Shown here: positions 10,396 to 62,216 of the stretch, piece by piece
How the letters are laid out: each line of letters starts with the position of its first letter
How positions within the stretch are numbered: the first letter of the stretch is position 1
Sequence record: MH494197.1
Source of the DNA: Escherichia phage CMSTMSU
Length of the DNA: 64,000 nt
Reading direction: 5' to 3' (one strand)
The notes under the pieces: generated by a model
The model's database searches: none
What the model saw: the letters and a program-made list of their open reading frames with translations, nothing else
What the model was told of the DNA's origin: nothing
Program-made: the position numbers and the translations under genes

Positions 10396-10719
10396 AGAGC
10401 TACCAGTACTAAGATTTTTGATAATTGTTTGTTTCTATCCCGCAGATGTTGTTGTGTAAAATGCTCACTACAAGGGTATCAAGTGCATTGTTCAGCATAA
10501 GGTTACATCCAGTACTGTTATATTTTTTAGCTCAATTAGCCACGAACAATCCGCGAGAAATTTCCCGTACTCTAGTTCATTTAGCGTATTAATGTAGTAC
10601 TTAAGTGCATTTGTCATGTACAGTTCTCCTTATATTCCTTCTATAGTACATCAGTACTGAAAGGTTGTCAAGGGTTTTCTTTTTGGGGTAAATATGATAT
10701 AATGAATAAAGGAGGAAAT

Positions 10720-11866
10720 ATGTTACCTTTTGTAAGAATGGTTAAGTACGGGAATATTGCACCAGTACCGAAAAAATAAAGAAAGTTATAGCAGGATATG
10801 ATAATTTATATGTACTATATGGTGATGGTTCGCTATATGGTTGTGGAATCAATAACTATCAACAGTTAAATATTGATGGAACTGCTACACAAAATAATTG
10901 GGTACTAATTACCAATGGTGTTAGTAATGCATGGGCTGGTGGATACAATATTTTATATTTGAAAGAAGATAAATTTATAATGCACGGAACTAATGTCTCA
11001 TTAGGTTTAGGAAATACTACAATTCCATTAGGTGGAGTAGATGTAACTTCTTCATTCCCAGATATCTCTAATATTAAAATGATATCCATTGGTTTTGATT
11101 CAATGCACTATGTTAGTGCTGATGGTACAACTGTATATGGAAGAGGTATGAACACAAATGGTTCTGTTGGTTCAGGTAGTACTTACTCACAGAGTACTTT
11201 CACTTCAGTACTGAATAATGGAACTAATCAGGTTATTGATATATTTGGTAACGTTAATAATACAGTGCTTCTAACATCGAATGGTGAGCTTCGAGCATGT
11301 GGGACAAGTGCTTATGGTTCTATAGGAAATGAAACTGGTAAGTGGACATCGTTTGGTTTAAAATTATCTGGCACTAAAATAATGGGTGGTAATGGGTATA
11401 GTACGCTTGCATATACAAATTCGGGAATGTACCACTCAGGGTGGCAGTTAAATGGGGAACTAGGAAATGGTTTAGATACTAACGTACAGGTATATCCATT
11501 TCAATTTAACTCTAAAACGATAGATAGCAAGATAGATAAAATTGCCAAATCATCATCTGGGTCATATGTTAACATGTACTCAACAACAGAAGGAAAGATA
11601 TATACGACAGGTTCGTTTGGTAAAACGGGTCAACTACTGCATTGAATTTGTTCACCAATACATTAACACTTATAAATTACAATCCAGATACCGCCTCGTT
11701 GTATACGTGCACAAACTTCAGTGTTGTGTATGATGGTAATGAAACTATTGCTGTAAGTGGTAGTCCTACATATGTACCGAGGGCGTTGCCGCTAATAGAT
11801 GGACTACAATTCCATTACCCAAGTAATACTATGCCAGTACTTGATGCTGGCTTTTCTTTTGATTAA
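10720..11866 (+). CDS. leader-tagged RCC1-like repeat protein F1 (frame breaks)
   Basis: AAGGAGG then ATG; N-terminus MLPFVRMVKYGN; stop after 19 codons at an A-run (10766-10772), one extra A restores a reading colinear with paralogue 24753..25907; body = track ORFs 10959..11645 and 11642..11866. Confidence 0.7.
11833..11860 (+). terminator. intrinsic terminator between F1 and F2
   Basis: Hairpin GCCAGTA-CTTGA-TGCTGGC followed by TTTTCTTTT; same element recurs after most array genes. Confidence 0.6.
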
Positions 11867-11893
11867 ATATAGTATAATGAATAAGGAGGAATT

Positions 11894-13017: not shown

Positions 13018-13087
13018 ATACTATGCCAGTACTCAAGTACTGGCTTTTATTTTATTAAATATAGTATAATGAATAAAGGAGGGAAAT

Positions 13088-14273: not shown

Positions 14274-14282
14274 GAGAAAATC

Positions 14283-15404
14283 ATGTTACCTTTTGTTAGA
14301 ATGTTTGATTATGGAAATGAAGCACCTGATCCTAGTTCGGGATTTCGAATAATAAGTACAGGAGACGCATTACTATTAATTACTAAGAGTGGTGATTTGT
14401 GGGTGCGTGGTTATAACCGTTATGGCAAGTTAGGTATAGGTAATAACACCACTACCTATGTACTTGATTGGACGAAGGTTAGAAGTGATGTAAAGTTTGC
14501 GTGTGGTAGTGGATTGGTAACAGTTATCTTTACTAAGGGTAATCGCATATTGTACTGTGGTGACAAATGGTTTGAAACGGGTGGTGTTGGTAGTGCACAG
14601 ATTTTCACATGGACAGATGTTACGCACCAATTTGGGGCAGTAGATTTGAGTACAGTAAGGGATATGAAAATGTCTTATTACACGATTGGATTATTGACTA
14701 CTAATAATCAATTATACGCTAAGGGATATGATAATAACCTATCATTTGGTGGGGTTAGTAATAAGGCGACTGCTGTGTTTATTGCGAATAATGTACAAGA
14801 GTTGTATACGAGTTTAGTTAGTACAATCTACGTTGATACAAGTGGTATATTACATCGTTGTGGCATGAGTGATAACGGTTCGTTGGGTAATAATGTTAAT
14901 TTAACTTCGTATCTAAGTTATTCACAGACTGGTATGACGATTAAGGACATTGGAATGATGACTACGAACACTGGGTTATTATATACTGATTCTAGTGCAC
15001 GCACGAGATATTTTATTGCTGGACAGAACTTGAATAAACAGATGGGTAATGCGGCGGCTGCGAGTGCCATTACGAGTACTTACACAGAGCTTTCTGGTAG
15101 TGTTGATAAGTTTTCTTCTTTATGGGCGAATGATGGGATATTGATGACATTTGCTGTGGGTAAGAACACTAATCAGTTATTTTATGCTGGGATGAATACT
15201 TTTCATGCGAGTGGTGGTGTATCTTCATATGCGGATACATATGAGTTAGTCCCGATGGTGTTTAATGACATACAGGAAGTGTTATGTGCACAGCGTTTAT
15301 CGGTGGTACATGATTCTACGAAGTGGTATTACTGTGGTGATGCTAATTCAATGTATGGTTTACCGGACGTAAGTACTTTTACTGAGTTACCGTTGCCCTT
15401 TTAA
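14283..15404 (+). CDS. leader-tagged RCC1-like repeat protein F4 (intact, 373 aa)
   Basis: Uninterrupted track ORF; N-terminus MLPFVRMFDYGN; GGAG upstream; about seven repeats of (D/N)GxhYxxGxNxxGxLG; starts 9 nt after F3 stop with no terminator. Confidence 0.85.
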   Translation: MLPFVRMFDYGNEAPDPSSGFRIISTGDALLLITKSGDLWVRGYNRYGKLGIGNNTTTYVLDWTKVRSDVKFACGSGLVTVIFTKGNRILYCGDKWFETGGVGSAQIFTWTDVTHQFGAVDLSTVRDMKMSYYTIGLLTTNNQLYAKGYDNNLSFGGVSNKATAVFIANNVQELYTSLVSTIYVDTSGILHRCGMSDNGSLGNNVNLTSYLSYSQTGMTIKDIGMMTTNTGLLYTDSSARTRYFIAGQNLNKQMGNAAAASAITSTYTELSGSVDKFSSLWANDGILMTFAVGKNTNQLFYAGMNTFHASGGVSSYADTYELVPMVFNDIQEVLCAQRLSVVHDSTKWYYCGDANSMYGLPDVSTFTELPLPF

Positions 15405-15412
15405 TAATAGGT

Positions 15413-15440
15413 CAGTACTGAAATATGTACTGGTATTTTT
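15413..15440 (+). terminator. intrinsic terminator after F4
   Basis: CAGTAC-TGAAATAT-GTACTG hairpin followed by GTATTTTT. Confidence 0.55.
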
Positions 15441-15476
15441 GTAAATACTATATAATTTAATTACGGAGATTTTATT

Positions 15477-16653
15477 ATGTTACCTTTTGTTAGAATGTTT
15501 GATTATGGGAACGTCGTTGAGCGACCTGTGGGTACACGTTATACCTGTAGTGACTATAGTGCGACTTATAGTTTAATAAAGGATGGTGTGTTATATGTAT
15601 CTGGGATGAATAACTATTATCAGTTAGGTAATAACACTAACGTAACACGTTACAACGAGTGGTTAAAAGTTCCAGAGACTGATAGTGTTAAGTTTTGTAG
15701 TACTGGTTATAGTCAGACAATGTATATTACTAACAATGGGAGGATAATGATAGCTGGTGAAGATCCTACTTCCAGTGCGACGGCGGTAAGTGTTAAGGTA
15801 TGGACTGATATAACTTCTAGATTTAGTGCAGTTGATACAAAGAAGATTGTTTATATTTCAATAGAACGCTTTGGTGTAATGATGATCATGCAAGATGGTT
15901 CAGTATGGGCGTGTGGAGTTGATAATACTGGTTGGAGTGGGCAGGAAGTAAAACTGTTGGTTTCTTTACTTTCAGACAAATATACACCGGAAGTGCAGGA
16001 AGTGCAGTTGCTGGTACTGCTGGTACTGGTACTGCGAGAATTCTGTTAGCTAATGGAACAATCTTGTCCGCTGGTACTAATACATATCATCAATGTAATG
16101 CTAGTACTGATCCGGCTGTTCTAACATTCACTGAATCATTCCACGGGTTGATCCTTCATTGATATATCAAATCAAGATGTGTAATAACAACTGTATTATA
16201 TTTTGAGTGATAAGAGATATTACGGTACTGGCTGGGAAGTTTTGGTGCATTGGGTGATGGTGATATTACGGGTTCGAATAATAAATTCTATGCAGGTACA
16301 TTGTCAGTTGCTCCTAAAACATGCGTGCTTATATGTCGTATCTATGTAGTTCTTCTGGGGATTCTAGTATGTACATAGGCGATGATAATTTCATATACAC
16401 CTGCGGTTATCGTGGGAGGAACTTAATAAATGCCACTACAGATATTGGTACGTTCACGAAATGCATTCAAAGTGCACAAGGATACAAGAATGGACTTATA
16501 TATAGTGGGAATTATTGTGCTGTAGTTTTTGATCCAGATTTGGGTTCAGGAATGTCATATGCGGTTTCATCACCAAAATTGAATGCACCAGCACCACAGG
16601 CGAGTGTTCCAACATTGGGTATGAGTTCGTTACAAGCTATTATTTTACCATAA
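15477..16653 (+). CDS. leader-tagged RCC1-like repeat protein F5 (frame breaks)
   Basis: Track ORFs 15477..16049, 15932..16162, 16321..16653; N-terminus MLPFVRMFDYGN; variant promoter TATATAAT and GGAG. Confidence 0.65.
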
Positions 16654-16736
16654 CATTATACCAGTACTGAAATATGTGCTGGTATTTTTTTAAATACATT
16701 ATAATTATTATATGGAGATTTTAGTTATGTTACCTT

Positions 16737-17851
16737 TTGTAAGAATGTTTGATTATGGGAATACAGTGGCTGCTCCCACTGGTATAAAGGATTTCAAGCA
16801 AATGGAAGCCACTGTATGGCACTAACATATAGTGGTGAGATGTGGGCTTATGGTACAAGTACAAGTGGATCAATGGGAACCGGATTCACGGTGGGTGCTG
16901 CTGATAAGGGTTGGTACAAGTCTAACATTAGTAATGTTAAATCATTCAGTTCTAATATGCAGACTAGCACAGTGGCTTTGACAAATGATGATAGAGTGCT
17001 AGTTTGTGGCTCAACTAGATTTGACAAATTCAGTACTCCAGATATTGCATCATCTAACCTTGATTGGTTGGATGTTACTGATCATATTCCACAGGAAGTT
17101 ATTGATGCTGGGATGAAGCAAGTTATTAACCACGTATATTATGTTGCCATTTTACTGAAAACAATCTATTATATAGTGTGGCATTATCTTTGGGTAATAC
17201 TAGTACTATAATAGATAGAACATGGAGAAGAAATACATTTGGTGATATACAAGTTGAACGTGTTGTTTCGTTGACACAAACCCCAAGTGGTCCTTTGTGT
17301 ATAGTTCAAGATGCAGACGGATACCAGTATGGTATTGGATATAATGGTAATAAGATTATTGATAATACTTCCACTAATTCATATTCTGTATATACCAAAA
17401 TGGGTACACTTCCTTACAATGAATTTGCCATATCGAATAGCGGGAAATTCAGTTCAGCGGTATTATCAGATGGGAGAAGTGTTTATAGTGGTACATTTCC
17501 AAAGTCATTCAATAATAGTTTTGGTTCATTTTGAAAGTTGGTGCGGTATCAGATACTGTGTTTGGTTTAGATGCAAAAATATGCGTGGTCAATATGGTCA
17601 AAATCAATTACCAATTGCGTCGGCTGATAACAATGCAAGTAATGGCGTTGTGAACCTTCGTAATGTTCCAGCGGGAACACAAACGAAAGACATTCGATTT
17701 ATATGCGGAAATGATGTAAAGAACGTTTATATCATATACACAAATGAAGACGGCATTAGCTCATTTTATGGATTGGGACCAAACTTTGATCAAAATTCCT
17801 CAACATATGCACAATTCGTCAAAGTGGATTTGCGGGGCATTATCAAATTAA
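16737..17851 (+). CDS. leader-tagged RCC1-like repeat protein F6 (frame breaks, 3' end approximate)
   Basis: ATG at 16737 after terminator 16661..16690; N-terminus MLPFVRMFDYGN then early stop; body = track ORFs 16816..17211, 17178..17534 and 5' part of 17311..18324. Confidence 0.6.
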
Positions 17852-17861
17852 GGAGAGAAAT

Positions 17862-18960
17862 ATGTTACCTTTTGTTAGATTGTTTGATTATGGGAATATC
17901 ACACGGTCCTAAAAATATAATTAAAGTTGGTGCTTCTACACAGGGTCAATTCTTATTGACAGATTCACATGATTTATATTACATAGGTAGAAATCAAGGT
18001 GGTGAATCTGGAAATGGAAATACCAACACAGTATCCTCATGGATATTAGTAAGTACAGATGTTTCTAATTTTTTCGTGGGTGATCGTACACTTGTTATTA
18101 TTAAAAATGATAATACGATATGGTCATCAGGTCAAACGTACTGGTTCACATCTTCCACAACTACTTCTTACAGTACTGTATTAGTTGATAGAACCAGTTG
18201 GTTTACCAATGCCATACCAGTAAGTGAAATTGCTGATATAGTATGTTCGTATGGTTTAATATTTGTACTTAGCACTAGTTCAGTACTCTATGGTGCAGGG
18301 CTAATGGATATCGTGGTGCTTTAGGTATTGGTTCATCATCAATTTACACATTAACTCAATGTGCTACTAATGTGCGTAAAGTAATGACGAATGCAAATGA
18401 CAGTATGTATATTACATTAGATAATAAGTTATATAGTTCTGGGTGGAATGACCGTGGATTACATGGCACAGGAACAGAACACAAGTTAACATTTGGGGAC
18501 TGCGTAGTTCTGGTGTAATAGATGCAGCTATTGGTGGACATACACTCAATTACTATAATGGTACATCATATTTCACATGTGGTACAACTCCAAACTTTCT
18601 TAGTTCAGATTCAACTACATTCAAAGCAGTTCCTGTAAGTACTTTACCTAATAATTCACCTTTGTTTATGACAAATTCAGAGGCAACAAGCACGGCTACG
18701 CAAATTATATTAACTAGTGCATATCAGAAAGGTATTGGAAACCGTGGTTTGGGATTAAACAATTCTCAAACGGTGCTATCTATAGTGCTGCTAATTTACA
18801 ATTACCTGTAGAAGTTAGTGAGATTAGTGATGTTGCTTTTAGTGACGGATTAACATCATTATTAACCAAAGACGGAATGTATATAGTACTGGATCGTATT
18901 ACGCCATTCCGTGCAAGTGCAGATGTTGCAGTCTTTACTAAAATTGATTTACCAAAATAA
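17862..18960 (+). CDS. leader-tagged RCC1-like repeat protein F7 (frame breaks)
   Basis: AGGAGAGAAAT then ATG; N-terminus MLPFVRLFDYGN then stop; body = 3' part of track ORF 17311..18324 plus downstream frames ending ...FTKIDLPK. Confidence 0.6.
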
Positions 18961-18966
18961 CATAAT

Positions 18967-18993
18967 GCCAGTACTTGATACTGGCTTTTCTTT
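18967..18993 (+). terminator. intrinsic terminator after F7
   Basis: GCCAGTA-CTTGA-TACTGGC hairpin plus TTTTCTTTGG. Confidence 0.6.
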
Positions 18994-19000
18994 GGTTAAA

Positions 19001-19023
19001 TATAGTATAATGAATAAAGGAGG
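19001..19023 (+). promoter_or_regulatory. conserved array promoter/RBS module (-10 TATAAT at 19006-19011, AAGGAGG at 19017-19023)
   Basis: Block TTAAATATAGTATAATGAATAAAGGAGG nearly identical upstream of 12 of the 17 array genes; no convincing -35 hexamer. Confidence 0.5.
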
Positions 19024-19028
19024 GAATT

Positions 19029-20198
19029 ATGTTACCTTTTGCAAGAATGGTTAAGTACGGGAATATTGCACCTGTTCGCCCTGAAATAAAGAAATTGGAT
19101 GGTAGTCAATTACATGTCGGATTACTATATAGTACTGGTAATATGTATATGCGTGGTTCTGGTTCGAACTACAAGTTAGGTACAGGTGATGCTAGTGATG
19201 TATTAGATGGTTGGGTACATGTACCCTATGAAGTTGATGATTTTTGGGCGTGTGTGTCCGGTACATTAATAAAGACTAAAGACAATAAGTTATATTGTGC
19301 AGGACTATACATGGGTGGATATTTTGGTGCTAGTGGTTCATATGTTAACTGGACTGAAGTAACTTCATTATTTGTGGGTATTAACGTCTCACAAATAAAG
19401 AATATAGAATTTACATCAGCGAGTACTTCCGGTAGTACACTAATATTGATGTTAGATGGTAGTTTATATGGGTTCGGTATGAACAGTAGGTCGGAGTTAG
19501 GTGTTAATAACAAAGTCGTATCTCCTATTCTTATAGATACTGGGGTAAGTTCAATAGGAGCACATAAATTAGGTGGTTCATCGTTCCATTATATAAAAGA
19601 CGGTAAGTACTACAGATGTGGGACCGCGATTGGTAGTAATATAGGAAGTTCTTCTTTAACTACATTTACTGAATTGAGTATTGCTGATAATGTTATATCT
19701 ATGCAAATATTATTTGACAACGTACAGTTATTATGTTTTGGTAGTACTGGATATAGTATCTATATGGCTGGTTCTAATGATTATGGTGGAAGAGGTGTTG
19801 GTGGTAGTACTGTTTACACTACATTCAGGAAAATAGATCTTACTGGATTTGGTGTTGTTCCCAGTGAAATACTATTTGAAAATGCAGGGAATGGTTATGT
19901 TAATATATCAACTGATAGTACTGGCATATATACATGTGGTGGTGGTGCTGGTGTTAATGGTTTAGGTAGACCGAGTAATGTTATATCAAGTTCACAGTTG
20001 GGTTTGATTGAGTTCAGTACAGGATTATACCCAGCAAATATAAGTCGTGTATTTTCACAGAGTTCATCTTCTGTTATATATTGTATAGTTAATAATGAAT
20101 TGTACTGGGCTGGGAGTAATTCATATTTTACTGATCAAACTACAAATACTGGTACACAATTTTCATTTATTAAGATGAAGGATATGCCTTCTGCTTAG
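19029..20198 (+). CDS. leader-tagged RCC1-like repeat protein F8 (intact, 389 aa)
   Basis: Uninterrupted track ORF; N-terminus MLPFARMVKYGN; Gly/Ser/Thr/Asn-rich repeats. Confidence 0.85.
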   Translation: MLPFARMVKYGNIAPVRPEIKKLDGSQLHVGLLYSTGNMYMRGSGSNYKLGTGDASDVLDGWVHVPYEVDDFWACVSGTLIKTKDNKLYCAGLYMGGYFGASGSYVNWTEVTSLFVGINVSQIKNIEFTSASTSGSTLILMLDGSLYGFGMNSRSELGVNNKVVSPILIDTGVSSIGAHKLGGSSFHYIKDGKYYRCGTAIGSNIGSSSLTTFTELSIADNVISMQILFDNVQLLCFGSTGYSIYMAGSNDYGGRGVGGSTVYTTFRKIDLTGFGVVPSEILFENAGNGYVNISTDSTGIYTCGGGAGVNGLGRPSNVISSSQLGLIEFSTGLYPANISRVFSQSSSSVIYCIVNNELYWAGSNSYFTDQTTNTGTQFSFIKMKDMPSA

Positions 20199-20205
20199 AT
20201 TTTAT

Positions 20206-20235
20206 GCCAGTACTCTGTACTGGCATTTCTTTATT
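20206..20235 (+). terminator. intrinsic terminator after F8
   Basis: GCCAGTAC-TCT-GTACTGGC hairpin plus ATTTCTTTATT. Confidence 0.6.
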
Positions 20236-20265
20236 AAATATAGTATAATGAATAAAGGAGGAAAT

Positions 20266-21470
20266 ATGTTACCTTTTGTAAGAATGTTTGATTATGGGAA
20301 TGAAGCACCTGTGCCAGTTGGTATAAAGATGGTAAAAGTTTTACAGAATAATGTGTTTATTTTATTAGAAGACGGAAGATTATATGGCAGAGGGCATAAT
20401 TTTTACTATCAATTAGGTACTGGTAGTAGTTCTCCTACTATAGTTGAAGAGTGGGTTTTATGTTTAACTGATGTAAAGGAATTTTGGACTACTGGTGATA
20501 CACAAGGAATATTAGTACGTAAAAATGATGGCACATGGTGGAGTACTGGTACTCAAATCTATCGTGGTGTTAATACTACTTATCGTGTATGGACAGAAAT
20601 ACTTGGTATTTTTAATGATGTGAATGACACATATAGTAAAATAGTTATAGGAAGCGGCGTTACATTATTATTAACAATAGATAATAAATTATATAAGATG
20701 GGTGACAATAACAACGGTGAAGTTTTACTGGGGCTGTTGGTCAAAGAGTATCAGTACTGACATTGACACCAGAAGTTAATGTTAAAGATATTGGTGTAAC
20801 CGCGAATAATGCTTCATTTGTATTATACAATGATGGAACATTAAAGTACAGTGGGAATAAATCTAGTATTGGTTCGACTGGTACGACTAGTACAACTCCC
20901 ACATTGACTACTGTTACTACTGGAGTATTACAGATAAATTCGGAAAATGCATATAGTGCTAATTACGTATTAAAGAGTGATGGGCTATATGTATTCGGTT
21001 CACAAATAGATGGACAGTTGGGTGATGGCACTGATGGCACTATTAACAGTCTTAGAACAATCACAAAGATACCAGCTTCTAGTATTCCTAGTACTGCTAT
21101 TGATTACATAGGTGGTTCTAATTTTGAAGCACACGTTAGAGCAGGTGGTATATGGTATTTCGCTGGGCGTGGAAACGCTTCTGGAGATGGAATAACGAAC
21201 TCTAATGTTATTAAAACATGGCGTGCATGTACTAATATAACTGAACCAGTTCCATATGATAAAATGACACATGGTTATATGATAACATTCATGTTAAAAA
21301 CGGTGAATTATATGGTTCAGGGAATGGTGGTAGAACTGCTGGTATGGGTACAATTCCGTATGAAGAAGAAAATGCCGGAAATACAGGATTATTTAAAAAA
21401 TAGTTACACCGAGTTAAAATTAAAAGCCAGTACTCTGTACTGGCATTTCTTTGTATTAAATATAGTATAA
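20266..21470 (+). CDS. leader-tagged RCC1-like repeat protein F9 (frame break)
   Basis: Track ORF 20248..20760 trimmed to MLPFVRMFDYGN Met, plus track ORF 20763..21470. Confidence 0.65.
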
Positions 21471-21488
21471 TGAATAAAGGAGGGAATT

Positions 21489-22595
21489 ATGTTACCTTTT
21501 GCAAGAATGGTTAAGTACGGGAATATTGCACCAGTTCCGGTAGTTCCTACAATAAAAGATTTTAAGATTGGATTTTCACATGAAGTGTTATTGGACAGTG
21601 CAGGTGATGTATGGGGTATTGGATACAATACAGATGGGCAGTTGGCTTTTTGGATGCAAACACCAATTCATTAGGTGCGTGGTCTAAGATATATACTGAT
21701 GTTCGATTAATTGGAGTTACTGCTAGATATACAGTGGTAGTTACTAATAATAATAGAATACTATACGCAGGAAATAACTTAATTTCTAGTACTACCACTC
21801 TTGGGTGGACCGATATAACTACCAGTATGGGTCCGGTTGCGGTGGATAGCATCGATGCATTATATTGTACAGAGGGTATGATGCATATTAAAACTTCAGA
21901 TGGTTCTTTATATGCATATGGTCGTAACATGAACGCAAACAGTGGTGTTACTGGTGGTGTTATTAGTGTTGCAACTAAGGTTAATTTGCCTTCTGCTGTA
22001 AATGACATGCGATATACGTTTAGTTATGGTTCAGTACTATGTAGATTGGATACGACTTCTATATACGCATGGGGACGAAACATAAATGGTGAATTAGGTC
22101 AGGGTAATGCAACAGCCATTGTTACTCCAAAACTATTGTCTGGTTCTTCTATTGCAATGGGTACTTCGTATAATGCTACTGCAATTGTTTCTGGTTCTGC
22201 ATTGTTGCTTACATGTGGTGGACAAAACAGTGGGCAGTTAGGTAATGGTATTACAACTGATGGTAATGTATACACCTTTGGTGTCAGGACATACCAGCGA
22301 TCTTAATACAATAAGAAGTCCAGTGGATTGCAGTACAACGTACACCTCTGCATTTATGAGTCCAGATGGTATATATTACACTGGTGCTAACCGAAGTATG
22401 TTTGGTGGTATTAGTGGTGGTGCTACCGTTGGAATATATACTAAATGTAGTGATTTACCAATAACATATTCTAATATAATTCAGTGGAGTAGTGGTACTA
22501 TTGGTGGTGCTATATGTAGTAGTACAGAGTTATACCAATGTGGTATAGGTAGATACATTGCTGGTGATGGTGCGAGCACAACCGTATGGATTTAG
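21489..22595 (+). CDS. leader-tagged RCC1-like repeat protein F10 (frame breaks)
   Basis: Track ORFs 21489..21674, 21611..22306, 22245..22595; N-terminus MLPFARMVKYGN; break near a T-run. Confidence 0.65.
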
Positions 22596-22695
22596 GAAGA
22601 CACCATTACCTTGGGATACTTATTGACATTACGCCAGTACTTGATACTGGCTTTTCTTTTGATTAAATATAGTATAATGAATAAAGGAGGGAATT

Positions 22696-23884
22696 ATGTT
22701 ACCTTTTGTTAGAATGTTTGATTATGGGAATATCACACCTGAACCTCTTCAAATTAAGAAAATAATACCAACTGATACTGAGGTTGTTGTACTTTATACC
22801 GACGGTCAACTATACGCACGAGGCAGTAATAGTTATGGGAAGTTTGGTAGAGGAAATAATAATGCAGTAAGGTCGTGGACATTAATTAGAGAAAATGTCA
22901 AAGATTGCTGGATGACACAAGGAACTTTGTTAGTTCAAGATAAGGACTTAAATTATTTTTATTGTGGATATGGTAGTCATATTGGTTTAGAAACTAGTAC
23001 TACATCATTTTTAAGTTATAACCAATATATTGAAAATTTGTACACACAAAGTTCAGGTACTTCAATTAAACAGATGTATGCAGGTACTACTTGGTTTACT
23101 TTCTTAATGGATAATAATACAATATGGAGTACTGGTTGGAGTGGGGCTAGACAATTCGCTGATGGTACTGGTAGTACTCAACAAATAACAGATGGATCAT
23201 TTGTAAAAGCTGTCACGCCTAATGTTGATATTGCACGAATACAGTCAACAAATAGCTGTGTAATGTTTTATGATACACAAAATAATTTATATATTGGTGG
23301 TAGTACATCAGGTATAAGTACTACTGATACATGGACTCCATACAATCAATATACTTTATATCAGCCAAGTACAACATATACAAAAACATTACAATATGTT
23401 GTATGTACAATTGGTGCAGTCAGTGCTTTAGTGGAGAATCCAAGTACAGGAGCACGTCAGTTCCTAGTGGGTGGGAACGCCAATAATGGGGCATGGGGTA
23501 ATAACACTACGTCTAGTACAGCACGAGCAGTATTAGGAAATAATAGTACAACCTTACCACCGTACTTTGTATTCAATTCATACTGGATACCCAGCACAAT
23601 CTAGTATACTAGTTACGAGTTCTGGTGTATATGCAACAGGTTTAAATGCGAGTAGTTATGCTGGTTCATTGGGTGTTGGTTCTAATGTTACCATTGGTAA
23701 ATTTACTGCATGTCCATTGCCGTCAGAAATAACATATTCTATGTATGATAAAATAAAAATATATCGAGGGTCGTTACGTACTTTCCTAACTGCTGATATG
23801 AAAAATATATATTCAACCGGAACTTATGATGATGGTGGTCCTAGTACAAATAGATATGTACTGGATACACCTAGACAATTGTAA
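22696..23884 (+). CDS. leader-tagged RCC1-like repeat protein F11 (frame break)
   Basis: Track ORFs 22696..23604 and 23567..23884; N-terminus MLPFVRMFDYGN. Confidence 0.7.
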
Positions 23885-23948
23885 AAAAGCCAGTATCAAG
23901 TACTGGCTTTTCTTTGTTAAATATAGTATAATGAATAAAGGAGGAATT

Positions 23949-24683
23949 ATGTTACCTTTTGCTAGAATGGTTAAGTACGGGAATAAAATTGAATATAAGC
24001 CACATGGTGAACAATTAATCACGACAATAGGAACAACACAATTTACAGTTCCTGCTGGCGTTACCGAAATATCAGTATGTGTTATTTCGCCGGTGGTCAA
24101 CGTGGTGCTGGCGGCGGCTTATCGTGGCGTAATAATATTCCGGTTTCTGGTGGTGAGTACTTAAGTGTTTCTCTTACATCCCAACACTACTACAGCAGTT
24201 GAAAACGGTTTATATCGTGGAACTGAAAAACTATGTGTTAGCTTCACTGGTGCATATACGGTTGGTGGACTAGGTGGAAAAGCTGCTAACGCTATTAATG
24301 ATGGTGGTGGTAATGGTGGCAACACTGGTTTAAGTGGTGGTGCAGTCATTGGTGGTGGTGCTGGTGGCTACACTGGTAAAGGTGGTAACGGAAATGCAAT
24401 CACTGGTGAAAATGGTGCTGGGGGCGGCGGTGGTGGTGGTGCATTCTATAATACCTCGTTCATTGGTACGGGTGGTGGTACTGGTATCATTGTTCAAGGT
24501 GCTAATGGTATTGGTGGTAGCTACGATGGTTCATATAATGGTGGTGCTGGTAGTGGTGGTGCTGGTAATAGGTATGGTGGTGGTGGTAGTATATGGGATA
24601 ATTCTTCTTATACGGCGGCTGGTGGTGGTGCTGTGCGAATAATATGGGGACGTGGGAGATATTATCCTAATAATTCAGTCTAA
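23949..24683 (+). CDS. leader-tagged glycine-rich domain protein F12 (frame break)
   Basis: Track ORF 23826..24164 trimmed to MLPFARMVKYGN Met, plus track ORF 24165..24683 (GGGNGGNTGLSGG..., GAGGGGGGGAF); alternative frame across the break gives FAGGQRGAGGGLSWRN. Confidence 0.65.
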
Positions 24684-24752
24684 AATATAGGCCAGTACTT
24701 GATACTGGCTTTTCTTTGAATTAAATATAGTATAATGAATAAAGGAGGAAAT

Positions 24753-25907
24753 ATGTTACCTTTTGTTAGAATGTTTGATTACGGGAATATTGCACCTGAA
24801 GCTCCAAAGATAAAGAAAGTACTGTGCGGTCTTGATAATTTGTACGTCCTCTATGACGATGGCTCACTTTATGGTTGTGGGGTTAATTCGTATTTTCAGT
24901 TAAACGTTACAAATACAGCAACAAGAAATACTTGGATATTAATTTCAGAAGGTGTTACTGATGCATGGGCTGGGGCGTACAATATTCTTTATATCAAGGG
25001 TGAAGAATTCATAATGCATGGAGTTACCACACAATTAGGCACAGGAAATACTATGATTCCGTTGGGTGGTTTGAATGTTACTTCTTCATTTCCACATATA
25101 TCTAATATTAAAATGATATCAATCGGTGCAGATACAATGCACTACGTTGATGCTAGTGGTTCGATTGTTTATGGTAGAGGCATGAATGGTAACTATTCAC
25201 TCGGTGGTGGGTATTCCACGGCTCAGAGTACTTTTGTTTCAGTTATTAATACCGGAGCTAATACAGTCCTTGATATATTGGGTACACAGAATAACACATT
25301 AATATTAACATCAAATGGTGAACTTCTCGGTTGTGGGAGTAGTGAGTATGGCTCACTTGGCGTAAGTCAAGGACAGTATACTACACTAGTAAGCAGGTTA
25401 ACCAGTGTTAAACTGTTTGGTGGTAACAGTACTGGTACTCTTGCTTATTCAGCCAGCAATATATACAACGCAGGTTGGCAGTATGTTGGTCAACTTGGTA
25501 ACGGTATTACAACGAACACACTAGTATATCCATTTGCATTTAACTCCACTACTATTGATAGTAACATACATAAAATATCAAAATCAAGTACATCTTCACG
25601 TGTTAATATGTACGCAACAACCGAAGGAAAGATATATAGTACTGGTGAATTTGGTAGAAATGGTTCTGGTGGTAGTTTGAGTAGATTCACCAATACACTA
25701 ACTTTAGATAATTACAACCCAGAAAAATCAGCATTATACACATGTGCACATTTTAGTATAGTATTTGATGGTAATAATCAAATTTATGCTTGTGGTTCTT
25801 TTTGTATGTGCGTTCTATTACCACGAACTCATGGTCTGCAATTACAATGCCGAAATGATACTATAAAACTATGCCAGTACTTGATGCTGGCATTTCTTTT
25901 GTATTAA
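24753..25907 (+). CDS. leader-tagged RCC1-like repeat protein F13 (intact, ~384 aa)
   Basis: Track ORF 24735..25907 trimmed to MLPFVRMFDYGN Met; colinear paralogue of F1. Confidence 0.8.
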   Translation: MLPFVRMFDYGNIAPEAPKIKKVLCGLDNLYVLYDDGSLYGCGVNSYFQLNVTNTATRNTWILISEGVTDAWAGAYNILYIKGEEFIMHGVTTQLGTGNTMIPLGGLNVTSSFPHISNIKMISIGADTMHYVDASGSIVYGRGMNGNYSLGGGYSTAQSTFVSVINTGANTVLDILGTQNNTLILTSNGELLGCGSSEYGSLGVSQGQYTTLVSRLTSVKLFGGNSTGTLAYSASNIYNAGWQYVGQLGNGITTNTLVYPFAFNSTTIDSNIHKISKSSTSSRVNMYATTEGKIYSTGEFGRNGSGGSLSRFTNTLTLDNYNPEKSALYTCAHFSIVFDGNNQIYACGSFCMCVLLPRTHGLQLQCRNDTIKLCQYLMLAFLLY

Positions 25908-25936
25908 ATATAGTATAATGAATAAAGGAGGAAAAT

Positions 25937-27070
25937 ATGTTACCTTTTGCAAGAATGGTTAAGTACGGAAATAAAAGACCATCTAATAATATCAAAAGAT
26001 TTCATGTACAACCAATAACAGTGTTTTGGTGCTCACCGAAAGTGGAGATTTGTATGGTTTTGGATTCAATTCAGGTGGTGAACTTGGCACTGGTGCAAAA
26101 CTAGTGTTACTTCAGTTATTCAAATTGACACTGGAGTTGATGATGTATGGGGTGGTAGTCTATGTGCAATGTACAGAAAAGGCGATGAATTCTTTGGCAG
26201 CGGGACGGTTCTTATTATGGTTCAAGTGCTGTTAACTCAACCACATTTGTAAATGTAACACACATATTCCAAGATATAGATATTCTTAATATTAAGAAAA
26301 TTAAAATGACAACAGGTTTGTTTATATTAATGCAAAACGGCAACTTATATGGATGTGGGGTAAACACCAATTGTCAATTTGGTACTGGTGAGGCAGTGAA
26401 TTTTCGTTATCCTATAGCTACATTAACACAAACGGATGTTGTTGATTTTGATATTTTAGGAAACTCTAGTATAATATTAAAGACCGATGGGTACATGTAC
26501 AGTGCGGGTGATAATGGTCGTGGACAACTTGGTAGTTCTACTGCAACCACACTTCTGGTATATACACAAATTAGTAAATTTCCAAACGTAACCAATTTGG
26601 ATCTGTTCGGACACTCACAAGTTACTTCATTATTCAAAGATAGTGATGGTAAAACGTGGTTGAGTGGTAATAGTTATGGTATTGATTACCCAGTAGTAGC
26701 TACAACATTATTCAGTAAAGAAGCACCAGTACCTGAAGGTACATTTCGTTTTATCAACACAAGGGCAGGGTCAAATACACCAATAATATGTACACCCACT
26801 GGGTATTATGTTGCTGGTACTAACCCTTATGGTGCATATGGTATAGGTACGAATGTAACTCTGACAACATTCACAAGAATGGATTCTATGGATAGATACA
26901 TATCTGATTATAATAATGTTCCTGTTTTCGATGGATGTTTCTATGGGACATATTTTGCAGTTGGGGAACGTCTGTTTGGTGCAGGTAATGGTAATACTGG
27001 TAATGTTCCGGATATACTGGATCACAGCGTAACTATGTGGAAATTAATTATAAAAATAATTAAACCTTAA
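25937..27070 (+). CDS. leader-tagged RCC1-like repeat protein F14 (frame breaks)
   Basis: ATG at 25937 behind AAGGAGG; N-terminus MLPFARMVKYGN; body = track ORFs 26026..26235 and 26306..27070. Confidence 0.65.
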
Positions 27071-27138
27071 TACTATGCCAGTACTTGATACTGGCTTTTC
27101 TTTGGTTAAATATAGTATAAAGAATAAAGGAGGGAATT

Positions 27139-28308
27139 ATGTTACCTTTTGCTAGAATGGTTAAGTACGGGAATACTATACCCAAACCCGCTGGTGTGAA
27201 GAAAATTAGTACTTCCATTAATCACGTTGGGATGTTATTCGATAATGGAAATTTATATCTACGTGGGGTGGTGGTGAGTATAAGTTAGGAAATGACAGTA
27301 CTGGATTCGTACAGAATGGTTGGGTTAAGTGTCCATATAGCGTTGCTGATGTTTGGTGCTTCACTTACGCGACAATTATACTTACTACAAGTGGTGAATT
27401 ATACTTAGCTGGACAATTGGGTTATGTTGGTGTAGTTGCAGCGAGCGTACGGATGGACTAATATTACATCTAATTTATCCTCAATACCTGCACTTAGTAC
27501 TATACAAAACATAGCTTATACTGAGACTACAATTTACAATGGTGCTATATTAATTTTGTTAAGCAACGGGGACTTATATGGTATAGGTCGTAATGGTGGT
27601 GGTGTATTAGGCGTTTCTGGAATCCAATCAACTGCACTTAAGATTGACACAGGTGTTACTTTAATTGCTGGCACAGACCGTTCAGCGGCGTTACATTATG
27701 TGAAAAATGGTCAATACTACAGATGTGGGAATAATTCTCGCTACAACCTAGGAACAAGCTCTTCTGTTTTATCTACATTTACGGTAAGTACAGATATCAC
27801 AGGAACCGTACTGGGATTGCATGTACTACAAATGCGACTTCAGTACTGACATCATATAATGGTACTATTAGAGTGTATAGTGCTGGGACGAATACCGATT
27901 ATACGTTAGGTATTGGTTATGGAGATACCAGTATAATAATGAGTCCATTTAGTGCTACACCTCCAATTTATGGTATTGTACCAGATGCGGCATCACTGAA
28001 TAATTCTTGTATTAATTCTAATATGATTGCGATGACACAGGGTGGTAAATTGTATACATGTGGTAATGGTGTTGCTCTTGGTAGAGAAATCACTGCATCG
28101 ACACCTAGAACGGCGTACTATCCAGTACTATTTGAGGATTCAAATACTGCACTTGATGTTAATGCTTTTGCAGTGCAGGGGGTTCCGGTGTGTTATACGC
28201 ATTAGTGGGGGCAAATGAGGTTTACTGGTGTGGTAGTGGTTCTATGTTCCGGAACAGAGTGCAGGTACACAACAAGTTAAAATGAAGAAAATGATTTTAC
28301 CAGAATAG
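27139..28308 (+). CDS. leader-tagged RCC1-like repeat protein F15 (frame breaks)
   Basis: ATG at 27139; N-terminus MLPFARMVKYGN; body = track ORFs 27436..27849 and 27873..28205; upstream -10 is TATAAA. Confidence 0.6.
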
Positions 28309-28317
28309 GAGGAAAAT

Positions 28318-29449
28318 ATGTTACCTTTTGCAAGAATGGTTAAGTACGGGAATATAAAAGTAAAGAGTACTATCCAAAAAGTTATCCTTGGTGGTGGTGG
28401 TCAATGTGTGGTAACATTACTCAGTGATGGTAGAGTGTATGGACGTGGATACAATACAACATATGGGTTGGGTACTGGTACAACAACATTCGTAAGTGAT
28501 TGGGTATTAATGGGCGATAATATTGTTGATATCCATTCAAATGGTGTTACTGGCACATTCCTTATTACCAAAGAAAATAGAATTTTGTATTCTGGTTTTG
28601 CGACACCAATCAATGGCACAACATCACATTATACACGTTTCACTGATTTAACATCAACTGTATTTGCTGCGGTGGATGTTAGTAATATTAAAACAATTAC
28701 GGGAAATGGTAATGTTACAATGGTTCTTTTGAATGATGGTTCACTTTATGGGAGTGCAAATACAGGGTTATAGGTAATGGTAGTAACGTTGCATTATCAA
28801 CACAAACATATGTGACTAATGATGTGCGTGATGTGAAAACATATCCATCAATGAACACTATAACAAAAATAATAATCAAATATTGGCTAGTGGTATTTTA
28901 TACCAAGGCGTGAACGGTACAAATTCATCAATAAACACGTCTTCATATACATTACTGTACACATTACCGAGTTCTGATTGTTTTCAATTTGCATTTGATA
29001 CATATACATTTGGATATGTTGACCCTAGTACTAACACTTCTTATATAAGAGGTATACCAATAAATGGTTCATTAGGTAATGGCGTTACTAATAATACAGC
29101 AGTTACAACATGGGTTACTAAAGTTTGGAATACACCAATTGATAGTTCTATACCTAATAAATCATATACAACTAACCATGTCTCCTTGTTCAATGATGGA
29201 AACTTATGGACAACTGGTGCATCTAGTGTCGGCTATTCCAATGGTACAAATAGCACAACAGCTAATACATGGACCAGTTCATCTAATTTACCATTCAACA
29301 CTAATAACATAACAGACTATGCTTTTGGTGGTAGTATTACTGTGGTGGTAATCGACTATAGGACTATGTACATACTAGCTAACAACGCCATTGCTGGTAC
29401 TGCTACGACAACTTATAAATTTGAGCCATATAATTCTCCACCAGTTTAA
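28318..29449 (+). CDS. leader-tagged RCC1-like repeat protein F16 (frame break)
   Basis: Track ORFs 28318..28773 and 28883..29449; N-terminus MLPFARMVKYGN; starts 10 nt after F15 stop behind GGAGG. Confidence 0.65.
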
Positions 29450-29479
29450 TATAATGCCAGTACTATGTACTGGCTTTCT

Positions 29480-30128
29480 TTACATATTATATAATGTGAA
29501 TGCTGTCACTTTACCAGTTGTTGTTAGTTCATTATAAAGATACTCCAATATTCTCGCACACTCTAAGTATATCTCGATATCATCATGAATAAGTGAGTAC
29601 TGAAATAGCTGTTCTTCAGATAATTTGTATTGACTTCCTTTTAATGAATTGAGAATATCTTTCACATCATCAAGTACTGGGTAAAGTACGAAATCTTCAT
29701 CATATTTTGAAGCAATAAATTCAAATCCACCACCATCAGTACTAGATATACCAATCAGTACTTTATCAACCAAGTTAATGTTTATATAACGGTTGTGATT
29801 TGGGTGAATTGAAATCTCAAACATACGAGTACTGTTACAATCAACATCAATATACAAATATACATCGTTGAATTTATAAGTTAAGCAACCGTACTCAAGA
29901 AAATCAGAGCAAATAATTGATGAGTTTTTCTCGTCTCTGCGTAATGCATCTTGATATTCTTTTCACGCATAAGTAATTCGAACTTTGCACTAAACTTGCC
30001 ACCAGTAAGATAATTAGTATTAGGACGTTTGTAACTTGCAACTGGTCGGTGGGATGATGTAAAGTATTTTTTGTGAATCGTTTCTGTTTAGTGAAATATT
30101 CTTGATAGAACTTACTTCTTTTATTCAT
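29480..30128 (-). CDS. hypothetical protein encoded antisense within the array (frame break)
   Basis: Track ORFs 29904..30128 and 29480..29857 joined by a shifted frame (GGKFSAKFELLMREKNIKMHY...); sits between F16 and F17. Confidence 0.4.
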
Positions 30129-30205
30129 GAGTACCTCAATTAAATCGCTGTAAAATTGTACATTATAAAATGATTAAATAAAGTATAACACAAGGAGATT
30201 TTATC

Positions 30206-44014: not shown

Positions 44015-44041
44015 TTGTTTATTCTCTATGACTATATTTAT

Positions 44042-56517: not shown

Positions 56518-57480
56518 TTAAAAATCTTCGAACTCGTAACCTTGCATCTTCACCATCTTACGCAGTCGTTCCATTGCTTCAGAGTACTTACGGTGCAATG
56601 AAGAACGAGCAGTCATGACCTTACCCTTCTCATCTTCAAAACCACTCTCAATGATTTCTCGTAGCGTTTCTGGTTCAGAATAAGAACCAATACCATGTAC
56701 ACGTTCAATCAATTCACGGTCTTTGGCAGATAGGTTACTCATCATTTCTGCAATACTTTGTACCAGTGGGTACTGACAGTTTCTACGCCTAAGTTGTAAT
56801 CAGGTTCAACTGAAGTAACAATGTCAGATAATGTACTTTCTGAATCATTACTCATTTTCATATTCAATGCTACATAAGTGTTATTGTAAGTTAGACAATT
56901 CTTAACGTGTTGAATCTCAATACCAGTCTCTTTTGACACCATCTCAGGAGTTGGGTATTTACCATGTTTCCTTTGATACTCTTCTACACAACGTTTCACA
57001 TAAATGTTATTAACACTCATATAACGTGGGAAATGCACTAGATAATTAGCATCTGCACTTTCGTTATAGATTGTCATGTACACAGTTGTTGTTGCATATG
57101 TAATGAACTTAACATTTTGGTAGTGTCGAACGTATGAATTGCTCGCATTAAACCTTCAACACCATAAGAAATCTTATCTTCAAATGGGATGAAACATGTA
57201 CACTTACGTGCAACACTTACTACCATTGGATAGTTGTAGCGAACCAAAAGGTCAATATTCTTTTCAACGTCAATACCATCACGCACTGCTTGGATGAGCA
57301 TTTCATTCGTTATCCCTTTAGGGCGAGTTAAGCTGATACCTGTTTTGGTTTCTCAAACTTGTGACCGTCATGTTCTTCTTCTTCGACGGAATCAAGAGCC
57401 TCTAATACGTTGACTTCTTCACTAGCAAAACACTCATCCAGTACTTCTTCAGAAATTGCATTTAAATCAAGCTTTTTCAC
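56518..57480 (-). CDS. sigma-70 family sigma factor (frame breaks)
   Basis: Track ORFs 57074..57301, 56742..57083, 56518..56745 plus a GTG-initiated N-terminal piece behind GGAGAAG; region-2-like YGVEGLMRAIHTFD, region-4-like LSAKDRELIERVHGIG...TLREI...ARSSLHRKYSEAMERLRK. Confidence 0.6.
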
Positions 57481-62103: not shown

Positions 62104-62216
62104 AAAATCCCTTATTGATATTCCATTTAAGTATACGTCAAAACACAACTCAGTCAAGGTGCTTTTTACCTATCTAGAATAAATACGTTATAATAATTAT
62201 ACCAATGGAGGGATGA

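What the first reader, a model, noticed from the sequence alone, without database searches (positions are those of the whole stretch)
22633..22695. Array-specific promoter module lacking a -35, possibly read by the phage sigma factor
Upstream of 12 of the 17 array genes the block TTAAATATAGTATAATGAATAAAGGAGG is almost invariant; the remaining genes use a TATATAAT variant (F5, F6, F17) or are coupled directly to the preceding stop (F4, F7, F16). There is a -10 TATAAT with an AAATA box before it, but no TTGACA-like hexamer at -35. This contrasts with the full TTGACW-17-TATAAT promoters of the minus-strand early genes. The window also encodes its own sigma-70 family factor (56518..57480), so the array may be a separate temporal regulon.
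Basis: inference. Interest (0 to 1): 0.6.

Follow-up and report, generated by a model that had tools for sequence, protein, structure and literature searches.

The report
Late-gene promoter cassette between repeated phage genes
The repeated block in front of the tandem RCC1-like genes of this jumbo coliphage is real, but it is most likely an ordinary T4-style late promoter sitting just behind a transcription terminator. The same signal precedes the phage's other virion genes, so it is not a private promoter read by the sigma factor encoded in the window.

Summary
The window comes from an Asteriusvirus-type jumbo coliphage (121Q/PBECO4 group, ~97% identical to fEgEco12).

**Observation.** The 28-mer is real: 10 matches within three mismatches, none expected by chance. 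It precedes 11 of the 17 array genes, not 12.

**What is conserved.**
- TAAATA lies 30-36 nt upstream of all 40 array genes that have an intergenic spacer, across four phages.
- It persists where TATAAT has become TATAAC or TATAAA.
- It persists upstream of the homologues examined in GAP32, Serratia BF and XaC1 that have an intergenic spacer, which lack TATAAT.

**Not array-specific.** In fEgEco12, ATAAATA is the most enriched upstream 7-mer outside the array. TAAATA precedes capsid, sheath, tube, baseplate and fibre genes, and is about fourfold depleted elsewhere in the genome. This matches the T4-type late promoter (TATAAATA, no -35).

**Who reads it.** The relative encodes a gp55 homologue outside the window. 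Array proteins are virion components in phAPEC6. The window's own sigma factor aligns across regions 2-4 of sigma-70-family factors, and a separate GGGACA-N16-TATAAT class suits it better.

**Why the block is nearly invariant.** This probably reflects whole-gene cassette recombination at these junctions. No transcript data exist.

The parts
22633..22651 (+). Hairpin GCCAGTA-CTTGA-TACTGGC, 37 nt after the stop codon of the preceding array gene (TAG 22593-22595). It is the stem-loop of an intrinsic terminator.
   Evidence: Terminator scan. RNA fold -10.2 kcal/mol. The equivalent hairpins in phage G17 are annotated as terminators.
22652..22660 (+). T-run TTTTCTTTT, the terminator tail. It occupies the position where a -35 would lie.
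22664..22669 (+). TAAATA, the proposed core of a T4-type late promoter (aligns with TATAAATA, -13 to -6). The predicted transcription start is about 22674-22676.
   Evidence: Present before all 40 array genes with an intergenic spacer in four phages. Shared with structural genes. Depleted genome-wide. T4 consensus from PMC2988020.
22673..22678 (+). TATAAT box 3 nt after TAAATA. It resembles a sigma-70 -10 element but has no -35 and no TGn. It is probably the A+T-rich opening and initiation region of the late promoter.
   Evidence: It becomes TATAAA or TATAAC in 4 of 38 distinct modules and is absent at that spacing in a fifth. It is absent in the GAP32, BF and XaC1 homologues.
22685..22690 (+). 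Shine-Dalgarno sequence AGGAGG, 5 nt before the ATG at 22696 (array gene F11, MLPFVRMFDYGN...).
11833..11893 (+). Same cassette before F2: hairpin 11833-11851, TAAATA 11864, ATG 11894. It has a 1-nt deletion before the Shine-Dalgarno sequence.
13025..13087 (+). Same cassette before F3: hairpin 13025-13044, TAAATA 13056.
15411..15476 (+). Variant cassette before F5: hairpin 15411-15434, GTAAATACTATATAAT, TAAATA 15442.
16658..16726 (+). Variant cassette before F6: hairpin 16658-16685, TTAAATACATTATAAT, TAAATA 16691.
18967..19028 (+). Same cassette before F8: TAAATA 18997.
20204..20265 (+). Same cassette before F9: TAAATA 20235.
21426..21488 (+). Same cassette before F10: TAAATA 21457.
23885..23948 (+). 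Same cassette before F12: TAAATA 23918.
24689..24752 (+). Same cassette before F13: TAAATA 24722.
25871..25936 (+). Same cassette before F14: TAAATA 25905.
27077..27138 (+). Same cassette before F15: TAAATA 27107. The second box is TATAAA.
10689..10719 (+). First array promoter, before F1: GTAAATATGATATAAT. It has no canonical GCCAGTAC hairpin.
30175..30205 (+). Last array promoter, before F17: TTAAATAAAGTATAAC. It has no hairpin.
62180..62216 (+). Non-array late-type promoter GAATAAATACGTTATAAT before a structural-protein gene (homologue of fEgEco12 g507).
44035..44040 (-). Non-array TAAATA (CTATAAATATAGTCATAG) before the homologue of virion structural protein g555.
56518..57480 (-). Sigma-70-family factor gene (regions 2, 3 and a divergent region 4), broken in the window by homopolymer indels.

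Best explanation
**What each unit is.** Each intergenic unit of the array is a compact three-part expression cassette.
1. An intrinsic terminator (GCCAGTAC-loop-GTACTGGC plus a T-run) ends the transcript of the preceding gene.
2. A T4-type late promoter follows. Its only required element is the -10-region box TAAATA, related to the T4 consensus TATAAATA. It is followed by A+T-rich DNA, here TAGTATAAT. It needs no -35, which is why the terminator tail can occupy that position.
3. A strong Shine-Dalgarno sequence and the ATG follow.

**Who reads it (inferred).** Host core RNA polymerase carrying the phage's gp55-like late sigma, which is encoded outside the window, would start transcription about 6 nt after TAAATA (around 22674-22676). 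Each RCC1-like virion protein gene would then be made as its own late, monocistronic message, together with the other structural genes.

**Why the 28-mer is almost invariant.** Including the TATAAT box, it is far more uniform than a late promoter needs to be. The best account is concerted evolution. The ~110-bp junction, from the hairpin to codon ~13, is where whole-gene cassettes recombine.

**Shown versus inferred.** Shown: the sequence anatomy, the sharing of the motif with structural genes, its genome-wide depletion, its conservation across genera, the presence of a gp55 homologue, and the recombination breakpoints. Inferred: the start site, the dependence on the gp55 homologue, and late timing.
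For: 1. **Invariance of TAAATA.** All 40 MLPF genes that have an intergenic spacer, in the window, fEgEco12, G17 and UE-S1, carry TAAATA 30-36 nt upstream of the ATG. The other 8 are translationally coupled.
2. **TATAAT is less constrained.** It is TATAAC or TATAAA, losing the T at -7 that sigma-70 depends on most, in 4 of 38 distinct modules, and it is absent at that spacing in a fifth. In one module it is shifted by 2 nt.
3. **Conservation across genera.** Among homologues in other genera, GAP32 gp001, Serratia BF gp374 and XaC1 gp556 have TAAATA about 30-55 nt upstream of the ATG. In GAP32 and BF it again follows a terminator. None has a TATAAT.
4. **Not array-specific.**
   - With array genes excluded, ATAAATA is the most enriched upstream 7-mer in fEgEco12: 31 genes against 2.8 expected.
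   - TAAATA precedes 61 non-array genes, including the capsid, sheath, tube, neck, portal-region, baseplate, long-tail-fibre and endonuclease VII genes.
   - By my hand tally from the annotation tables, 26 of the 61 are annotated as structural, against 32 of 516 other genes (Fisher p = 4e-13).
5. **Genome-wide depletion.** TAAATA occurs 186 times on both strands against about 818 expected from composition. Hexamers of the same composition occur about 280-360 times per strand.
6. **Start-site signal.** Position +11 from the T of TAAATA, which is the T4-type +1, is a purine in 50 of 61 non-array sites.
7. **Late sigma.** fEgEco12 g336 is a gp55 homologue. It matches phrog_12791 at 1e-152 and phrog_234 at 1.5e-16. 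T4 gp55 hits both families, and pairwise BLASTP gives 3e-4. The gene lies next to recombination-endonuclease genes (g337 and the SbcC-like g338).
8. **Virion proteins.** Eight array proteins are in the phAPEC6 virion proteome (PMC7247149), and GAP32 gp001 is a virion protein (PMC5259590).
9. **Strand.** In fEgEco12 the array lies on the minority strand, together with the baseplate and fibre genes. T4 late transcripts likewise run in either direction.
10. **Prior in-silico motif.** An ATAAATA late motif was already proposed for CBB and GAP32.
11. **Terminators.** Hairpin folds average about -12 kcal/mol. G-U variants favour the sense strand. The G17 record annotates them as terminators.
12. **Junction recombination.** Identity among paralogues is 1.0 across the block and 0.25-0.34 on both sides of it. 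All 27 internal alignment ends between the window and three relatives fall in the junction blocks, which make up 9.8% of the array.
Against: - No transcript 5' ends, timing data or in vitro transcription exist for any Asteriusvirus.
- The base before TAAATA is T in most array copies. In non-array sites it is A in 31, C in 14, G in 9 and T in 7 of 61. The array version therefore departs from the T4 consensus at both -13 and -12, and it is the least common variant.
- A perfect TATAAT at a fixed 3-nt distance is not a general feature of this phage's late promoters. Only about 31% have any TATA at that position. It could be a second, independent signal.
- The gp55 homologue is seen only in relatives, because the window does not cover that part of the genome.
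- No gp33 homologue was looked for.
- The tally of structural genes was made by hand.
Confidence: 0.65

Rival explanations
1. Dual promoter. TAAATA is read late by the gp55-like factor. The adjacent TATAAT is separately read earlier by a sigma-70-family holoenzyme, either the host's or the phage factor encoded in the window. The array would then be expressed in two phases.
For: - TATAAT is a perfect -10 hexamer at a fixed distance in most copies.
- About a third of other late sites also have a TATA 3-6 nt downstream, against 6% of control upstream DNA.
- At least one window gene, the g551 homologue, carries both a GGGACA-N16-TATAAT site and a TAAATA.
- From my own knowledge, not checked here: many T4 genes have both pre-replicative and late promoters.
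Against: - There is no -35, no TGn, and no A-tract UP-like element. The upstream DNA is a G+C-rich hairpin.
- Every strong sigma-70-type promoter in the window has a -35.
- T at -7 is lost in four modules, and TATAAT is absent in the homologues from other genera.
- A start 7 nt after TATAAT would leave only a 10-12 nt leader that begins at the Shine-Dalgarno sequence.
Confidence: 0.15
2. This is an array-specific promoter without a -35, recognised by the sigma-70-family factor encoded at 56518-57480, making the array a private regulon.
For: - The full 16-mer TTAAATATAGTATAAT, with at most one mismatch, occurs only in the array in fEgEco12.
- The window does encode a sigma-70-family protein expressed from an early-type region.
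Against: - The conserved core is shared with about 60 other genes, mostly late ones.
- The sigma factor aligns over regions 2-4 of SigB, RpoS and RpoD.
- A distinct class, GGGACA-N16-(TGA)TATAAT, has a specific -35 and fits that factor better.
- The array-wide identity is explained by recombination at the junctions.
- According to the fEgEco12 paper, the gene product annotated as this sigma factor (Gp519) is absent from the otherwise very similar phage Ecwhy_1 (PMC13070987), although Ecwhy_1 still carries array homologues.
Confidence: 0.07
3. The invariant 28-mer is not under promoter selection at all. It is kept identical only because the junction is a recombination or gene-conversion tract, and transcription enters from further upstream.
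For: - There is a sharp island of identity flanked by random-level similarity.
- All breakpoints fall in the junctions.
- Three genes per array do without any cassette because they are translationally coupled.
Against: - Each cassette begins with a terminator, so read-through would be blocked and a fresh promoter is needed.
- TAAATA sits at the same distance in diverged variants (F1, F5, F6, F17) and in the GAP32, Serratia BF and XaC1 homologues, where gene conversion cannot act.
- TAAATA is otherwise avoided in the genome.
Confidence: 0.05

Closest known systems
Bacteriophage T4 late promoters (TATAAATA, read by gp55 with gp33 and the gp45 sliding clamp)
   Same: - A single A+T-rich box in the -10 region with the core TAAATA.
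- No conserved -35.
- A+T-rich DNA downstream.
- Placement before virion genes, on either strand.
- A gp55 homologue and a sliding clamp are encoded by the close relative.
   Different: - The first two positions differ: xTTAAATA instead of TATAAATA.
- A perfect TATAAT follows 3 nt downstream.
- The promoter directly abuts an intrinsic terminator.
- No gp33 homologue is known. None was found in the related phage CBB according to PMC5259590.
- Nothing has been tested experimentally.
In-silico late promoter motif ATAAATA of Rak2-like jumbo phages CBB and GAP32 (PMC5259590)
   Same: - The same phage group.
- The same core motif upstream of structural genes.
- GAP32's single RCC1-like gene carries GTAAATA after a terminator.
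   Different: That motif was described for other genera and for structural genes in general. It was not described for Asteriusvirus or for the RCC1 array, and not as a repeated terminator-promoter-Shine-Dalgarno cassette.
Sigma-70 extended -10 promoters (TGnTATAAT) that work without a -35
   Same: A consensus TATAAT with no -35 hexamer.
   Different: The TG motif is absent: the sequence is TAGTATAAT. The T at -7 is not conserved across modules.
Cassette exchange at conserved junctions in phage tail-fibre and receptor-binding gene clusters
   Same: Highly diverged gene bodies are flanked by short, nearly identical junctions. Gene order and content differ between close relatives.
   Different: - Here the junction is a ~110-bp terminator-promoter-N-terminus block.
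- It is repeated up to 14 times in one array of RCC1-like propeller proteins.
- No dedicated recombination enzyme has been shown.

Membership tests
T4-type late promoter (gp55-dependent) | TATAAATA-like box in the -10 region | tested here: met
   The TAAATA core, 6 of the 8 positions, is invariant in 40 of 40 spacer-bearing array genes. The first two positions deviate (mostly tT), as they do in some T4 relatives (A at -13 in T4; a/gC in Aeh1).
T4-type late promoter (gp55-dependent) | No conserved -35 element | tested here: met
   The -35 position is occupied by the terminator T-run and the 3' arm of the hairpin. There is no TTGACA-like hexamer.
T4-type late promoter (gp55-dependent) | A+T-rich segment immediately downstream of the box | tested here: met
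   TAGTATAATGAATAAA follows the box.
T4-type late promoter (gp55-dependent) | The same motif precedes the phage's other late (virion) genes | tested here: met
   Enrichment among annotated structural genes gives p = 4e-13 (hand tally).
T4-type late promoter (gp55-dependent) | The phage encodes a gp55 homologue | tested here: met
   fEgEco12 g336 matches phrog_12791 at 1e-152 and phrog_234 at 1.5e-16. T4 gp55 hits the same families. Pairwise BLASTP gives 3e-4. The gene lies outside the window and is seen only in relatives.
T4-type late promoter (gp55-dependent) | Transcription starts about 6 nt after the box, depends on gp55, and occurs late in infection | not testable with these tools
   No transcript data for this phage group were found in the literature searched.
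T4-type late promoter (gp55-dependent) | gp33 co-activator and gp45 clamp | not tested
   A sliding clamp (g359) and a clamp loader (g425) are annotated in fEgEco12. gp33 was not searched for. It is reported absent in CBB.
Sigma-70 extended -10 promoter | TG at -15/-14 (TGnTATAAT) | tested here: not met
   The sequence is ATAGTATAAT in all canonical copies.
Canonical sigma-70 promoter | -35 hexamer 16-18 nt upstream of the -10 | tested here: not met
   One module (F9, -35-like hexamer at 20220) scores CTGGCA-18-TATAAT, using the hairpin arm.
Intrinsic (rho-independent) terminator | G+C-rich hairpin followed by a T-run on the transcribed strand | tested here: met
   12 of the 14 window cassettes meet this. 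G-U wobble variants are more stable on the sense strand. G17 annotates them as terminators. Termination itself was not measured.

The most novel reading that the evidence does not exclude
The ~110-bp junction (AGTACT-bearing hairpin, late promoter, Shine-Dalgarno sequence and the first ~13 codons) may be more than an expression signal. It may be a maintained cassette-exchange site. Recombination there, possibly stimulated by a phage nuclease acting on the palindromic hairpin, would shuffle, delete and import whole RCC1-like virion-protein genes. This would make the array a combinatorial diversity system for a virion surface component.
Probability: 0.2. Interest if true: 0.55.

Novelty: new member of a known kind. 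Interest (0 to 1): 0.3.

Why it matters
- **Timing and function.** This assigns the largest paralogue family of these jumbo coliphages, 15-17 RCC1-like genes, to the late, virion-building programme. It moves them away from a private regulon and from the "DNA condensation regulator" role suggested by their annotation.
- **Promoter map.** It provides an in-silico three-class promoter map for Asteriusvirus. The classes are TTGACA (early), GGGACA-N16-TATAAT (candidate middle) and TAAATA (late). I found no published map for this genus.
- **Testable predictions.** It predicts start sites that a single 5'-end mapping experiment can check.
- **Array evolution.** It shows how the array varies between near-identical phages, by whole-cassette recombination at the junctions. 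That matters if these proteins affect host range or defence evasion.

Tried and rejected
- **Rfam.** A scan of the whole window found no known RNA family, so the cassette is not a known leader or riboswitch.
- **Solved structures.** A sequence search with the gp55 homologue returned only chance hits and no gp55. Homology was instead established through PHROG profiles and a direct comparison with T4 gp55.
- **Middle-promoter motif from CBB.** The TGAAACG -35 reported for CBB does not occur at the -35 position of TATAAT boxes in fEgEco12. TGAAAC and GAAACG each scored 0.
- **Transcript data.** Searches covered fEgEco12, phAPEC6, Sharanji, PA5oct and "Asteriusvirus transcriptom". None reports promoters or transcript data for this genus.
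- **CAGTACTG.** A literature search returned only primer sequences.
- **A TATA box as a general second element of late promoters.** It is enriched (31% against 6%) but far from universal. I therefore treat it as optional and not as part of the core.
- **Broken array ORFs as pseudogenes.** I considered this and rejected it in favour of sequencing error. The window differs from fEgEco12 mainly by single-base losses in homopolymer runs.

Full report
**Origin of the window.**
- Megablast places the window in the Asteriusvirus group of jumbo coliphages (121Q, PBECO4, G17). The non-array part is about 97% identical to vB_Ec-M-J and fEgEco12.
- The window corresponds roughly to the reverse complement of fEgEco12 positions 299.6-363.6 kb.
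- Compared with fEgEco12, it carries many single-base losses in homopolymer runs. This explains why many of its ORFs, including the sigma gene and several array genes, appear broken.
- I fetched the whole fEgEco12 genome (374,733 bp) as a reference.

**The observation.**
- The 28-mer TTAAATATAGTATAATGAATAAAGGAGG occurs eight times exactly, once with one mismatch and once with three. None is expected by chance. One more copy has a single-base deletion.
- All copies lie 5-6 nt before an ATGTTACCTTTT start. The window has 17 such MLPF genes, so the block precedes 11 of 17, not 12.
- F5, F6 and F17 have diverged versions. F4, F7 and F16 are translationally coupled, with the upstream stop codon inside the Shine-Dalgarno sequence.
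- There is no -35-like hexamer and no TGn. By contrast, the minus strand carries 32 strong TTGACA-N16-18-TATAAT sites.
This terminator shape is found before 12 of the 14 promoter-bearing genes. The G17 record annotates the equivalent hairpins as terminators.

**Which part is the signal.**
- Across the window, fEgEco12, G17 and UE-S1 there are 48 MLPF starts. All 40 with an intergenic spacer have TAAATA 30-36 nt upstream. The other 8 are coupled.
- The diverged versions keep TAAATA: GTAAATATGATATAAT, GTAAATACTATATAAT, TTAAATACATTATAAT and TTAAATAAAGTATAAC.
- TATAAT is TATAAA or TATAAC in four of 38 distinct modules, is absent at that spacing in a fifth, and is displaced by 2 nt in one.
- Among homologues in other genera, GAP32 gp001, Serratia BF gp374 and XaC1 gp556 have TAAATA at a similar distance. 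In two of them it follows a terminator. None has a TATAAT.

**Not array-specific.**
- With array genes excluded, the most enriched 7-mer in the 90 nt upstream of fEgEco12 genes is ATAAATA, in 31 genes against 2.8 expected. TAAATAA, TAAATAT and CTAAATA come next.
- TAAATA lies 12-90 nt upstream of 61 non-array genes. These include the neck, sheath, three tube genes, the portal-region genes, prohead protease, major capsid protein, fibres, baseplate wedge and hub, endonuclease VII and several proteins annotated as virion structural.
- By my hand tally of the annotation tables, 26 of the 61 are structural, against 32 of 516 other genes (p = 4e-13).
- TAAATA is otherwise avoided. It occurs 186 times on both strands against about 818 expected. 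Hexamers of equal composition occur about 280-360 times per strand.
- The position that would be +1 in T4 numbering is a purine in 50 of 61 sites.
- In the window itself, TAAATA also precedes non-array genes at 62180 (+), 44040 (-) and 45277 (-).

**Comparison with known systems.**
- T4 late promoters are an 8-bp TATAAATA box at about -10. They have A+T-rich DNA downstream and no -35, and they are read by gp55. Variation at the first two positions is documented in T4 and its relatives, and late transcripts run in either direction (PMC2988020).
- For the related jumbo phages CBB and GAP32, three in-silico promoter classes were proposed: RpoD-like early, a variant -35 class, and ATAAATA late. 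A gp55-like gene was noted there too (PMC5259590).
- fEgEco12 g336 lies next to recombination-endonuclease genes (g337 and the SbcC-like g338). It matches the late-sigma PHROGs that T4 gp55 also matches, and it aligns directly with gp55.
- Eight array proteins are present in the phAPEC6 virion, and GAP32 gp001 is a virion protein.
- The array proteins are RCC1-like propellers.
- In fEgEco12 the array lies on the minority strand, together with the baseplate and fibre genes.

**The window's sigma factor.**
- It has Pfam regions 2 and 3. It aligns with SigB, RpoS and RpoD through region 4.
- It sits in the early-promoter region.
- A separate class, GGGACA-N16-TATAAT, usually with TGA before the -10, occurs at 9 exact and 2 near-exact sites in fEgEco12. 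One lies at the start of the gp55-like gene, and two lie in the window.
- This suggests a cascade: host sigma-70, then the phage sigma, then the gp55-like factor. That is inference only.

**Why the block is so uniform.**
- Array paralogues share only about 27-29% amino-acid identity.
- Pairwise nucleotide identity among ten canonical units is 1.0 from TAAATA to the Shine-Dalgarno sequence and 0.8-1.0 to codon ~13. It is 0.25-0.34 on either side of that block.
- Alignments of the window array with fEgEco12, G17 and UE-S1 are mosaics of whole genes, in different orders and with different content.
- All 27 internal alignment ends fall in the junction blocks, which are 9.8% of the array. One caveat applies: alignment ends naturally run into any shared block. 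The informative point is that no breakpoint lies inside a gene body.
- The uniformity therefore reflects concerted evolution of a recombination-prone junction, on top of functional constraint.

**Verdict.**
- The feature is real and functional-looking.
- It is best read as a terminator, late-promoter and Shine-Dalgarno cassette of a known kind (confidence 0.65).
- The main rival is a dual promoter that also uses TATAAT (0.15).
- No transcript data exist. The two readings predict 5' ends 10 nt apart, so a single mapping experiment can decide between them.

Noticed in passing
Whole window, e.g. 52 CAGTACTG sites; fEgEco12 genome (L004-L011): AGTACT is about 8-fold over-represented. There are 976 copies in 354 kb against 119 expected, and 231 in the window. 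It occurs in all three reading frames and in intergenic DNA, with preferred flanks giving CAGTACTG. It forms the stems of the array terminators and sits just before the -10 of many early promoters (TTGACA-N9-AGTACTG-TATAAT). Unexplained.
   Followed up: partly
fEgEco12 genome (L004-L011): The genome shows an extreme purge of palindromes. 25 of the 64 palindromic hexamers are completely absent, for example GGATCC, CTGCAG, CCATGG, GGTACC, GTCGAC and CTCGAG, with 11-37 copies expected for each. The tetramer GCGC is absent, with 354 expected.
   Followed up: partly
Window minus strand 45341-45314 and 56484-56457; fEgEco12 65910, 75046, 87137, 89393, 110597, 122745, 141751, 190988, 318282: A third promoter-like class, GGGACA-N16-TATAAT, usually with TGA directly before the -10. 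One site lies at the start of the gp55-like late sigma gene. It is a candidate middle class and a candidate target of the window's sigma-70-family factor.
   Followed up: partly
Window minus strand, -35 starts at 48424, 44848, 44070, 41818, 37367, 36651, 34683: Early promoters are fused to hairpins. The -35 hexamer TTGACT lies inside the stem of a terminator-like hairpin (GGGTTGACTTCGGTCAGCCC). The hairpin's T-run forms the spacer before TATAAT. This is another compact terminator-promoter design.
   Followed up: no
Window 56400-57700 and array ORFs (e.g. 10720, 21489, 23949, 25937, 27139): Compared with fEgEco12, the window has many single-base deletions in homopolymer runs. These break the sigma gene and many array genes into short ORFs. 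They are probably sequencing or assembly errors and not pseudogenes. T-run lengths in the cassettes may be affected too.
   Followed up: partly
Window 10600-30300 vs fEgEco12 330-349 kb, L003, L002: Array gene order and content differ between near-identical phages. In the window, the bodies of F2, F6, F8 and F15 have no close counterpart in fEgEco12, g595 is missing, and the g591-like gene has moved. Every breakpoint lies in a junction block.
   Followed up: yes
Array proteins, N-terminal ~150-190 residues (e.g. window 24753-25300): The N-terminal part of the array proteins gives tblastn matches to proteins annotated as "tail protein" in PVP-SE1/4MG/SSE121-type phages. The first 12 residues (MLPFxRxxxYGN) are conserved as far as GAP32 and Serratia BF. 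This suggests a virion-attachment module.
   Followed up: no
Window 29456-29474: A GCCAGTAC...GTACTGGC hairpin with T-runs on both strands lies between F16 and a convergent minus-strand ORF, just before the last array gene (F17). It is likely a bidirectional terminator.
   Followed up: no
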